DNA of 37,121 bases from a plasmid: the sequence record NZ_CP059766.1; one strand, 5' to 3'. Numbering within the stretch: the stretch's first letter is position 1; every line of letters starts with the position of its first letter. The position numbers are program-made. Positions 34,201-37,121 of the stretch are shown piece after piece.

Positions 34201-37121
34201 CGATTGTAACGTCCTTTCTCAAACAAAAAGAGAACACAGTTTAGCTTTAATCTCAGCCATAGTATGTGTTCTCTCTTCAGTGTTTAAGAATATTTAATTT
34301 AAGTACACTAAATAAACGTTCTTCTGTTGAGTTGCTCGCCTTTTTTTGGTAGAATAAAGGCAATCGGAAAAGGTATCCGATCAACTTTTAATATAAGTAG
34401 TTGGTAGCTACTTACATATTCTTGAGACGAGCGTGAACACATGTCCTAACCATGTGATTCAGAAATAATTGATTCTGCTAAAATCAATTATTTCCGTCTC
34501 TTTTTTTTATGTAATTTTTCTGTTTAAAGAGTACCACTGCTTTTGCTACTTTGTAAATAGTGAATTATCTGTGGTTTCTATAGAATTAAGTTTACCTCTT
34601 TTCACTCTAAATTGTCAACGCAAAACGCACAAATATATTTTGACATTTTGAATATATCTGATATACTGAATATAGCAAATATATTTAGTATATCCACTAT
34701 ATTCCTTATAAAGTCTGAATTCTTATCAATTTGGAGTATATTAGATATATCGAATATATTAAGTATATGAAGTATACTAAATATATTTAGTATAGGAAAT
34801 TGGAGGGAACTATGGAAAACTTACGGACTGCATTTAAAACATCAGATAAACTAGGAAAAGTTGTAATGCTTACAGGTAGAAAAGGCGGCATTGGTAAGAC
34901 TACAGACAATGATTTATTAGCGATTGTTTCTAGTCAACTTTTTGAAAAAGACGTGTTGCTAATTGATTATGACCAACAAAGAAATACTACTTCCAACATT
35001 GGATCAACGTATCAAATTACTAGCTTTGATCGATCCATGTCTGCAGCAATCAAAAAAGGGGACTGGGTTTCAGGTATTACTCAAGTAAGTCCACATTTAT
35101 ATATTATGGCTGGCTCTCCTGGATCTGAAGAACTTAATGAATACTTGTCCGAAAAATATCCTGATCGTCGTAAGAGATCATTGGCCTTCATTAAACCTTT
35201 AGAAGAATTGAGAAAAAATTTCGATTATATCTTTATCGACTGCCCACCATCAACAGATAATGTGGTTCGTGCATTCTTAACTGCTGCAGATTATATTATT
35301 GCAATGCAAGAATTAAAACGGTACGCAATGGAAGGAACAGAAGATTTTATTAATAAAGTTTTAGTTCCGATTGTCACGAATTTTGAAGAGTCTCATCTTC
35401 AAATCATTGGAATTTTGCCTGTTCTTTTCTCAGTGCGACGTTCCTCTCAACACGCAAACTATCAAAAAACAATTGATAAGTATGGTGAATCAAACATTTT
35501 TAAAAGCATTGTTAAAGGCTCGGATCGGTTAGAAATGTATGGTGAGAATGGTATCCAATTAAATGATTATGTAGATCGAAGATGGTGGGCTATTTTTGCA
35601 GACATCTTTACAGAATTAGAAGAAAGAATTGAATACTATGAACAACATGGTGATATTGAAGGATTTGATTATACACCTAAATATGCTGACTCAATGGCCA
35701 ATCATATCCTACCTCTTGGAAAGGAGATTAAACTAAATGGCATTATTACCAACGAACAAAGATAAGAAGAAAATTGGTGCTGAAGATATTTCAATTAAAG
35801 ATGATATTAATGTCGAGTTAGGGGAACGAAAGTACACTGCGAAAGAAAGAAAACCAGTTCAAGTAGATCCTCCCGTACTAAAAACCATTCGGGATCTTAG
35901 TTATGCAAAAGATATTCCTATGTATGAAATAGTCAAACTTGCAATGGACGCCTATGTTGATACTTTAAACGACGAGGAACGGATTATATATAATAGACGA
36001 TCAAAAGATTAAAATATAGTAAGTATACTAGATATAGTAAATATATTTAGTATACTTACTATATTTTTAGCTTTATTAATCCTAATCCTTCAAAATATGT
36101 GTATTGTTTGGGGGTATACAACATTTGGTGTTAGTATCAAATCTTAGACAGCTTTTCGTAGAGACAAGAATAAATTAAACTTATCTACGAGAGGATGAAT
36201 TTTTATGACCCGATATGAAGAAAATTTTAAACAAATGATTGTTGAACTGAATCAAACTGGACGTTCTGTTCGAGGGTTAGCGAAAGAATATGGCTTATCT
36301 GAAGCAACGATTTACAAATGGAAGAATTTATATTTACCTGATCAGTCCACAGGACTGACTGGAAAAGAAGTAGCTGAACTGAGAAAAGAAAATGCTCGTT
36401 TAAATGAGGAACTTGAAATCTTAAAAAAAGCCGCAGCCATATTCTCTCGGAAAACCTAAATTCGCTTGTTCAATTTATTGAAAAATGGTGTAAGGATTAC
36501 ACTGTTTCTTTGTTGTGTCGGTTATTAGAAATCCCTAGAAGTGTCTATTATTTTTATAAGAATAAACCGTTGACAGCTACAGAAATCAGAAATAATAAGT
36601 TGAAAAAGAAGATTTCAACAATTTTTTTTACGAATAAACAACGCTATGGTGCCACAAAGATCCATCAAGTTTTATTAAAAGAAGGGATTTCAGTATCTCT
36701 TAAACATGTCCAAAAGCTAATGAAACAATTAAATTTAAGGTCGATTGTAGTTAAAAAATATAGACCTCAAAGGTCTAATAAACCGATCATGGATAGGCTA
36801 CAATTAACTAGACAGAAAAATTAAGGTGTGTAGACTAGAAGAAAACATACCAGGAGGAATTTTTATGTCTAAGAGAACACGAAGAACTTTTTCACAAGAA
36901 TTCAAGCAACAAATCGTCAATCTTTACTTAGCTGGAAAGCCACGTGTAGAAATCATTCGAGAATATGAACTAACGGCTTCAGCATTTGACAAATGGGTAA
37001 AGCAATTTAAAACGAGTGGTTCATTCAAAGAAAAAGATAATCTTACGCCTGAACAAAAAGAATTGTTAGAACTACGTAAAAGAAACCAGCAATTAGAAAT
37101 GGAAAATGATATTTTAAAGCA

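What the first reader, a model, noticed from the sequence alone, without database searches (positions are those of the whole stretch)
36866..37121. The window reads as a closed circle: an IS3 orfA reads in frame from the last base into base 1
The final bases ...gat att tta aag ca and the first bases a gca gcg ctg ata ttc gga cga aga gac aag taa join to give ...DILKQAALIFGRRDK*. That is the typical C-terminus of an IS3-family OrfA, with no duplication or gap, and it is followed by the LYPISAMCRIL frameshift window and OrfB at 70-906. The 37,121 bp therefore look like a complete plasmid linearised inside an IS3 element. The physical unit would be one ~37 kb multiresistance replicon, and features at both window edges belong together.
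Basis: seen in the sequence. Interest (0 to 1): 0.6.

Follow-up and report, generated by a model that had tools for sequence, protein, structure and literature searches.

The report
Circular plasmid cut inside IS1485
The two ends of this 37-kb sequence fit together to the base into one complete copy of the common enterococcal insertion sequence IS1485, so the window is an ordinary circular Enterococcus multiresistance plasmid whose record happens to start inside that element.

Summary
Joining base 37121 to base 1 gives a 96-aa OrfA (ATG 36865, stop 32-34) ending DILKQAALIFGRRDK*. With a -1 slip at T_TTA_AAG (37113-37119) it gives a 387-aa OrfAB. Both proteins exist verbatim in public databases.

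The reconstituted element is 1,366 bp (36790-37121 + 1-1034). It has TG...CA inverted repeats and a 3-bp TCA target duplication, and it is the only copy in the window. Independent copies in other plasmids end at exactly these bases, and some are annotated IS1485.

IS1485 lies inside a second IS3-family element (36126-36789 + 1038-1621). Removing IS1485 and one TCA restores that element's orfB, and 208 plasmid records carry the uninterrupted form. So three nested layers close across the junction: IS1485, the host IS, and the repR-parA-prgO | res-fic backbone.

The joined 2,517 bp is 100% identical and contiguous in many Enterococcus plasmids, including pRE25. AP027230.1 is colinear over 30 kb straight across the junction.

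Corrections: the ATG is at 36865, not 36866, and the frameshift site lies before the junction, not at LYPISAMCRIL.

This is ordinary and already known. Physical circularity and monomer versus multimer state still need reads.

The parts
36790..37121 (+). IS1485, 5' part (332 bp): IRL, orfA start and frameshift site.
   Evidence: Independent copies in other contexts begin at exactly this base (query position 101). This is the only 5' part in the window.
1..1034 (+). IS1485, 3' part (1,034 bp): end of orfA, orfB and IRR. 332 + 1034 = 1,366 bp in total.
   Evidence: Independent copies end at query position 1466 = window 1034. Annotated 'IS3-like element IS1485 family transposase' in CP144209.1 and in cluster members.
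36790..36814 (+). IRL of IS1485 (TGGATAGGCTACAATTAACTAGACA). It contains the -10-like hexamer TACAAT.
   Evidence: Imperfect inverted repeat with 1010-1034.
1010..1034 (+). IRR of IS1485 (TGTCAAAAAAACTGTTGCCATTCCA). It ends in CA and contains the -35-like hexamer TTGCCA.
   Evidence: When IRR and IRL are abutted with a 3-bp spacer, TTGCCA and TACAAT are 17 bp apart.
36787..36789 (.). Target-site duplication TCA, left copy.
   Evidence: Removing the IS and one TCA restores the host IS.
1035..1037 (.). Target-site duplication TCA, right copy.
36865..37121 (+). IS1485 orfA, codons 1-85 plus two bases of codon 86. It continues at 1-34.
   Evidence: The joined 96-aa protein is an exact database match.
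1..34 (+). IS1485 orfA, last base of codon 86 through the stop TAA at 32-34.
37113..37119 (+). Slippery heptamer T_TTA_AAG (X_XXY_YYZ) for the programmed -1 frameshift that makes OrfAB.
   Evidence: Sequence. A fusion made at this site (387 aa) is identical to deposited proteins CAC29210.1 and AEO13650.1 and matches NF033516 over its full length at 320 bits.
2..73 (+). Candidate frameshift-stimulating stem-loop. Its core is a 9-bp stem, 6-14 CGCTGATAT pairing with 61-69 ATATCAGCG. This is inferred.
   Evidence: RNA fold of the joined sequence: -28.7 kcal/mol, z = -3.5, 0 of 200 shuffles as stable.
70..906 (+). IS1485 orfB (ATG-initiated ORF, 278 aa). The -1 frame is open from 37110. It encodes the DDE integrase core.
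   Evidence: Pfam rve, rve_2, rve_3 and HTH_21 hits on OrfAB.
36126..36789 (+). Host IS3-family element, 5' part: IRL TGGTGTTAG..., orfA 36205-36459 and the orfB 5' end from 36510.
   Evidence: Independent intact copies start at query position 82 = window 36126. NF033516 partial hits.
1038..1621 (+). Host IS3-family element, 3' part: orfB 3' end to 1579 and IRR ...CAAATCCA. The element is 1,248 bp without IS1485.
   Evidence: Intact copies end at query position 1329 = window 1621. 208 records hold the uninterrupted joint. The orfB frame is restored.
32707..36012 (.). Replication and partition block on the 3' window side of the junction: repR (32707-34200, -), parA (34800-35765, +), prgO (35737-36012, +).
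   Evidence: Pfam PriCT_1 and AAA_31 hits. 99.98% identical to the region of AP027230.1 annotated RepR, ParA and PrgO.
2052..3245 (-). Resolvase (2052-2633) and Fic (2640-3245) on the 5' window side of the junction. In relatives they lie next to the nested IS block.
   Evidence: Pfam Resolvase and Fic hits. pRE25 has the same order, parA-prgO-[IS3::IS1485]-recombinase-Fic.

Best explanation
The window is one full turn of a circular Enterococcus (E. faecium-type) multiresistance plasmid with a RepR-type replicon of the kind found in pRE25. Its deposited record was opened at an arbitrary base inside the single IS1485 copy, two bases after that element's frameshift heptamer.

IS1485 is a 1,366-bp IS3-family insertion sequence.
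- OrfA (96 aa, HTH) is made by normal decoding.
- The transposase OrfAB (387 aa, HTH + DDE/rve) is made by a -1 ribosomal slip at T_TTA_AAG, probably helped by a downstream stem-loop.
- By analogy with IS911, IS2 and IS3, it should transpose by copy-out-paste-in through a circular intermediate. In that circle, IRR and IRL abutted over 3 bp would create a TTGCCA-17 bp-TACAAT junction promoter.

Here the element made a simple insertion with a TCA duplication into orfB of another IS3-family element next to prgO. That nested arrangement is old and is shared by hundreds of plasmids.

Shown: the seamless join, the element boundaries, the target duplication, the empty site, the exact protein matches and the colinearity with relatives. 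Inferred: physical circularity, the frameshift mechanism and stimulator, the junction promoter and the transposition pathway.
For: - The joined ORF and protein are exact matches to database entries.
- The joined 2,517 bp is 100% identical and contiguous in every listed record, including pRE25; 226 records cover at least 80% of it.
- The window holds only one IS1485, split 332 + 1034 bp with no overlap and no gap, and no other terminal similarity.
- The IS ends coincide with the ends of independent copies.
- TCA target duplication and empty-site records; host IS orfB restored in frame.
- AP027230.1 is colinear across the junction over 4,931 + 25,141 bp at 99.98%.
- OrfAB matches NF033516 over its full length at 320 bits against a cut-off of 160, with Pfam HTH_Tnp_1, HTH_21 and rve.
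- There is one repR/parA/prgO set plus a resolvase, and resistance genes tet (TetM/W/O/S family), ant(6), sat4, aph(3')-IIIa and aac(6')-Ie-aph(2'')-Ia.
- Four IS1216 copies and a 2.1-kb inverted repeat are resolved inside the window. This argues for a long-read assembly that would not break at a 1.4-kb IS.
- Many relatives with the same block are 27-40 kb records.
Against: - No reads or physical data are available, so closure is inferred from sequence.
- The exact 37,121-bp record is not in PLSDB, so its topology flag could not be read.
- The nearest relative, AP027230.1, is deposited as a head-to-tail dimer, so multimeric forms or assembly artefacts occur in this plasmid group.
- IS1485 is multicopy in enterococci (PMC4438569). 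In principle an assembler could therefore join ends through another copy.
Confidence: 0.9

Rival explanations
1. False circle. The 37 kb is a segment of a larger replicon or of the chromosome, bounded by two direct IS1485 copies. The assembler, or the record, collapsed it into a circle or simply ended inside the repeats.
For: IS1485 was found in all enterococcal strains tested in one survey (PMC4438569). It occurs in up to 7 places per plasmid record, so repeat-mediated mis-joins are conceivable.
Against: - The two ends are complementary parts of one element meeting at the same nucleotide with zero overlap. Two independent breaks would coincide about 1 time in 1,366.
- The sequences flanking the IS on either side are the two halves of one host IS, with a matching TCA duplication. 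That is the signature of a single insertion, not of two copies in different contexts.
- The same prgO-[IS3::IS1485]-res-fic order is contiguous in relatives.
- Larger repeats inside the window were resolved.
Confidence: 0.04
2. The molecule in the cell is a head-to-tail multimer or tandem array of the 37-kb unit, and the record shows one unit.
For: The closest relative, AP027230.1, is a 60,121-bp record made of two 30,061-bp units at 99.98% identity.
Against: - The plasmid encodes a resolvase next to the junction, which normally keeps such plasmids monomeric.
- Dimers in long-read assemblies are a common artefact (own knowledge).
- Nothing in the window itself indicates duplication.
- This rival does not contradict the claim that the ends belong together.
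Confidence: 0.06

Closest known systems
IS1485 (IS3 family; Cheng et al. 1999, Plasmid 42:42, as cited in PMC4438569)
   Same: Independent copies are 99.1-100% identical over the whole 1,366 bp. The OrfA and OrfAB proteins are identical to deposited ones, and cluster members are named 'IS3-like element IS1485 family transposase'.
   Different: Nothing of substance. This copy is merely split by the start of the record.
pRE25 (NC_008445.1, 50,237 bp, E. faecalis, Inc18)
   Same: The 2,517-bp nested block is 100% identical, with the same neighbours parA-prgO on one side and recombinase-Fic-IS1216 on the other.
   Different: pRE25 is larger and conjugative (MOBQ, MPF_T per PLSDB). Its resistance gene cargo was not compared here.
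pJAOU2377_3 (AP027230.1, E. faecium, Japan)
   Same: 99.98% identical and colinear with window 32191-37121|1-25141. It has the same repR, parA and prgO, the tet(S) gene, and the ant(6)-sat4 cluster with an aph(3')-IIIa that is shorter there.
   Different: It is deposited as a dimer of a 30,061-bp unit. It lacks window 25142-32190, about 7 kb holding IS256-GNAT-aac(6')-aph(2'')-IS256-IS1216 and an IS30-like gene.
IS911 / IS3 / IS2 (paradigm IS3-family elements)
   Same: Two ORFs in 0/-1 frames, an X_XXY_YYZ slippery site followed by a structure, TG...CA ends and a 3-bp duplication. A -35 in IRR and a -10 in IRL would form a junction promoter in the circle (the comparison rests on my own knowledge).
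   Different: The heptamer is T_TTA_AAG rather than A_AAA_AAG. Transposition, frameshifting and the junction promoter of IS1485 were not tested here.

Membership tests
IS3 family insertion sequence (IS1485) | Length of about 1.2-1.55 kb, with terminal imperfect inverted repeats that start 5'-TG and end CA-3'. | tested here: met
   1,366 bp; IRL TGGATAGG..., IRR ...CCATTCCA. The ends agree with independent copies.
IS3 family insertion sequence (IS1485) | Two consecutive ORFs with orfB in the -1 frame, and a slippery heptamer in the overlap that gives an OrfAB fusion. | tested here: met
   The frame offset is 2 mod 3. T_TTA_AAG lies at 37113-37119. The predicted 387-aa fusion is identical to deposited proteins. 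Actual frameshifting was not tested.
IS3 family insertion sequence (IS1485) | Transposase with an N-terminal HTH and a DDE (rve) catalytic core that matches the family model above its cut-off. | tested here: met
   NF033516 at 320 bits (cut-off 160), profile positions 1-369 of 369. Pfam HTH_Tnp_1, HTH_21, rve and rve_2.
IS3 family insertion sequence (IS1485) | 3-4 bp direct target duplication, with an identifiable empty site. | tested here: met
   TCA at 36787-36789 and 1035-1037. 208 records hold the uninterrupted target.
IS3 family insertion sequence (IS1485) | Copy-out-paste-in transposition through a circular intermediate with a junction promoter. | not testable with these tools
   Only the potential TTGCCA-17 bp-TACAAT promoter at abutted ends was seen.
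Closed circular plasmid record | The ends join without gap or duplication into sequence known to be contiguous elsewhere. | tested here: met
Closed circular plasmid record | A self-sufficient replicon: an initiator plus partition and resolution functions, each present once. | tested here: met
   One repR (PriCT_1), parA, prgO and a resolvase, named as in AP027230.1. The origin was not mapped.
Closed circular plasmid record | Reads or physical mapping that span the junction from unique sequence on both sides. | not testable with these tools
   No read data are available, and the source record was not found in PLSDB.
RepR-type (Inc18 / pRE25-like) enterococcal plasmid backbone | A RepR-type initiator with the parA-prgO partition module, typed to the same replicon cluster as reference plasmids. 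| tested here: met
   Window 32191-37121 is 99.98% identical to the repR-parA-prgO region of AP027230.1, which is typed rep_cluster_185. pRE25, typed Inc18 and rep_cluster_185, shares the parA-prgO-IS block. The repR gene itself was not compared with pRE25, and the window was not replicon-typed.

The most novel reading that the evidence does not exclude
This exact 37,121-bp combination may be an undescribed plasmid variant. It joins a pJAOU2377_3-like tet(S)/ant(6)-sat4-aph(3')-III backbone to a roughly 7-kb IS1216/IS256-bracketed aac(6')-aph(2'') module. The module would have been acquired through IS1216, and the plasmid may alternate between monomer and dimer forms as its closest relative suggests.
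Probability: 0.5. Interest if true: 0.1.

Novelty: already known. Interest (0 to 1): 0.08.

Why it matters
The value is mainly practical.
- Features at the two window edges must be read together. These are IS1485, the host IS it interrupts, and the repR-parA-prgO | res-fic maintenance region. None of them should be scored as truncated genes or as novel end-of-contig oddities.
- All five resistance genes ride on one small replicon.
- There is no new biology. IS1485, its nesting in the second IS3-family element, and this backbone are all widespread in Enterococcus plasmids, including pRE25.

Tried and rejected
- **Source record.** I looked for the identical record in PLSDB using 1-25000 and 23500-33500. 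No record has the whole structure, so the source record and its topology flag could not be read.
- **IR search.** A first, strict search for inverted repeats printed nothing. A looser scoring scheme found them.
- **Untrimmed overlap.** The 4-nt AGCA shared by both ends looked like a possible assembler overlap that would break the frame. I rejected this because every other IS1485 copy reads AAAGCAAGCAGCG.
- **Host IS duplication.** I looked for a target duplication around the host IS. The flanks are ATT and GTA, so there is none.
- **Host IS name.** Annotations say only 'IS3 family transposase', or 'tra981J' in one record. Its ISfinder name stays unresolved.
- **erm(B).** The 244-aa ORF at 21213-21947 is a generic class I methyltransferase, not erm(B).
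- **Collection scan.** No short pattern is unique to this plasmid, because every junction also occurs elsewhere.

Full report
**1. The observation**

The last bases of the window are ...GAA AAT GAT ATT TTA AAG CA. The first bases are A GCA GCG CTG ATA TTC GGA CGA AGA GAC AAG TAA. I joined the ends and translated from the ATG at 36865-36867, which is one base before the coordinate given and follows the AGGAGG site. The result is a 96-aa ORF ending ...MENDILKQAALIFGRRDK*, with its stop at window 32-34.

The ORF at 70-906 (278 aa) exists as described. It lies in the -1 frame relative to orfA.

**2. It is not chance**

- The joined 96-aa OrfA is an exact match to a protein recorded on 343 contigs.
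- The 387-aa fusion, made by slipping -1 at the heptamer T_TTA_AAG (37113-37119), is an exact match to deposited transposases CAC29210.1 and AEO13650.1.
- That fusion matches NCBIfam NF033516 (IS3 family transposase) end to end at 320 bits against a cut-off of 160. It has the Pfam architecture HTH_Tnp_1 - HTH_21 - rve/rve_2.
- A 2,517-bp sequence built across the junction (36205-37121 + 1-1600) is 100% identical in one piece to every plasmid record listed, including pRE25 (NC_008445.1). In all, 226 records cover at least 80% of it.

**3. Anatomy of the element**

The inverted repeats are IRL TGGATAGGCTACAATTAACTAGACA (36790-36814) and IRR TGTCAAAAAAACTGTTGCCATTCCA (1010-1034). A TCA sits on each side, at 36787-36789 and 1035-1037. 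The element is 332 + 1,034 = 1,366 bp.

I tested these ends in two independent ways.
- I searched the element with 100 bp of flank on each side. Copies in other contexts match query positions 101-1466, which is exactly 36790..1034. One is annotated 'IS3-like element IS1485 family transposase'.
- I searched an artificial 'empty site' with IS1485 and one TCA removed. 208 records cover it (>=80%); all 15 listed match the full 800 bp in one piece at 99.9%.

The element is therefore IS1485, an IS3-family element reported to be widespread in enterococci (PMC4438569, citing Cheng et al. 1999).

**4.

IS1485 sits inside another IS3-family element.
- That host element's orfA is at 36205-36459 and the 5' part of its orfB runs from 36510, at the end of the window.
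- The 3' part of its orfB is at 1038-1579, at the start of the window.
- Intact copies elsewhere define its ends as 36126 and 1621, which gives 1,248 bp without IS1485.
- Removing IS1485 and one TCA restores an uninterrupted orfB.

Three nested layers therefore close across 37121|1: IS1485, the host IS, and the plasmid backbone. pRE25 has the same order, parA-prgO-[IS3::IS1485]-recombinase-Fic-IS1216.

**5. Is the window a circle?**

- A self-comparison shows exactly one IS1485, split by the ends with no overlap and no gap. There is no other similarity between the first and last 3 kb.
- The shared terminal AGCA is a coincidence, because AAAGCAAGCAGCG is the sequence of all other copies.
- The window resolves four IS1216 copies and a 2,129-bp inverted repeat (IS1216 + IS256) around aac(6')-aph(2''). 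Such an assembly would not break at a 1.4-kb IS. An arbitrary start point in a circular contig explains the cut better.
- AP027230.1 (pJAOU2377_3, E. faecium) is colinear with window 32191-37121 and then 1-25141. Its record positions 31249 and 31248 are adjacent across the junction, at 99.98% identity.
- The window differs from that plasmid unit only by the roughly 7-kb stretch 25142-32190.
- The window has one RepR-type initiator (497 aa, PriCT_1), ParA, PrgO, a resolvase and Fic.
- It carries a TetM/W/O/S-family tetracycline gene (called tet(S) in relatives), ant(6), sat4, aph(3')-IIIa and aac(6')-Ie-aph(2'')-Ia.
- Relatives sharing the nested block include many records of 27-40 kb.

All of this supports one ~37-kb circular multiresistance replicon.

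**6. Rival readings**

A false circle through two IS1485 copies would need two breaks at the same nucleotide, about 1 chance in 1,366. It also conflicts with the matching host-IS halves and the target duplication, which mark a single simple insertion. I give it about 0.04.

A multimer cannot be excluded from sequence. The nearest relative is deposited as a head-to-tail dimer of a 30,061-bp unit. This does not change the claim that the ends belong together. I give it about 0.06.

**7. Mechanism**

This part is inferred from the sequence and from established knowledge of the IS3 family.
- OrfA comes from standard decoding.
- OrfAB comes from a -1 slip at T_TTA_AAG. The site is followed by a predicted stem-loop that starts 3-7 nt downstream, with a core 9-bp stem pairing 6-14 with 61-69. 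The fold is -28.7 kcal/mol with z = -3.5.
- If IRR and IRL are abutted over 3 bp, as in IS3-family circles, TTGCCA in IRR and TACAAT in IRL come to lie 17 bp apart. That would be a near-consensus junction promoter like those of IS911 and IS2.

None of this was tested functionally.

**8.

- The ATG is at 36865.
- The frameshift site lies before the junction, not at 'LYPISAMCRIL'.
- The proposed outward PCR from 36900 and 200 lies wholly inside IS1485, which is multicopy in enterococci (PMC4438569). It would give a product whatever the plasmid topology, so the primers must sit in prgO and res.

**9. Verdict**

Biologically it is ordinary: a known IS, in a known nested arrangement, on a known backbone, cut by the arbitrary start of a circular record. 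Novelty: already known. Interest: low.

Noticed in passing
L001/L002 (AP027230.1 1-60121): The closest relative, deposited as a 60,121-bp 'complete circular' plasmid, is a head-to-tail dimer of a 30,061-bp unit at 99.98% identity. It is either a real multimer or a long-read assembly artefact.
   Followed up: partly
window 24331-30506: Perfect 2,129-bp inverted repeats (IS1216 + IS256 at 24331-26459 and 28378-30506) bracket a GNAT gene and aac(6')-Ie-aph(2'')-Ia, a Tn4001-like module inside IS1216 arms. The stretch 25142-32190 is the only part of the window that AP027230.1 lacks.
   Followed up: partly
window 3389-4197, 16436-17244, 24333-25141, 29696-30504: There are four IS1216 copies (809 bp, 99.75-100% identical) in both orientations. 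They could generate inversions, deletions or translocatable units, so the order of the resistance modules may vary between isolates.
   Followed up: no
window 36126-36789 + 1038-1621: The 1,248-bp host IS3-family element has roughly 40-bp imperfect inverted repeats (TGGTGTTAG... / ...CAAATCCA) but no matching 3-bp flanks (ATT versus GTA). Its ISfinder name could not be determined; one record labels its gene 'tra981J'.
   Followed up: partly
window 37118-37121 and 1-4: The window both starts and ends with AGCA. This mimics a 4-nt untrimmed overlap but is a coincidence.
   Followed up: yes
window 21213-21947: A 244-aa class I SAM-methyltransferase-like ORF lies upstream of ant(6)-sat4-aph(3')-IIIa. 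It is not erm(B); only weak generic methyltransferase hits fall below the cut-offs.
   Followed up: no
window 31293-32252: A 319-aa ORF has weak rve and HTH_38 hits. It is annotated as an IS30 family transposase in matching records. It lies between the aac(6')-aph(2'') module and prgN/repR.
   Followed up: no
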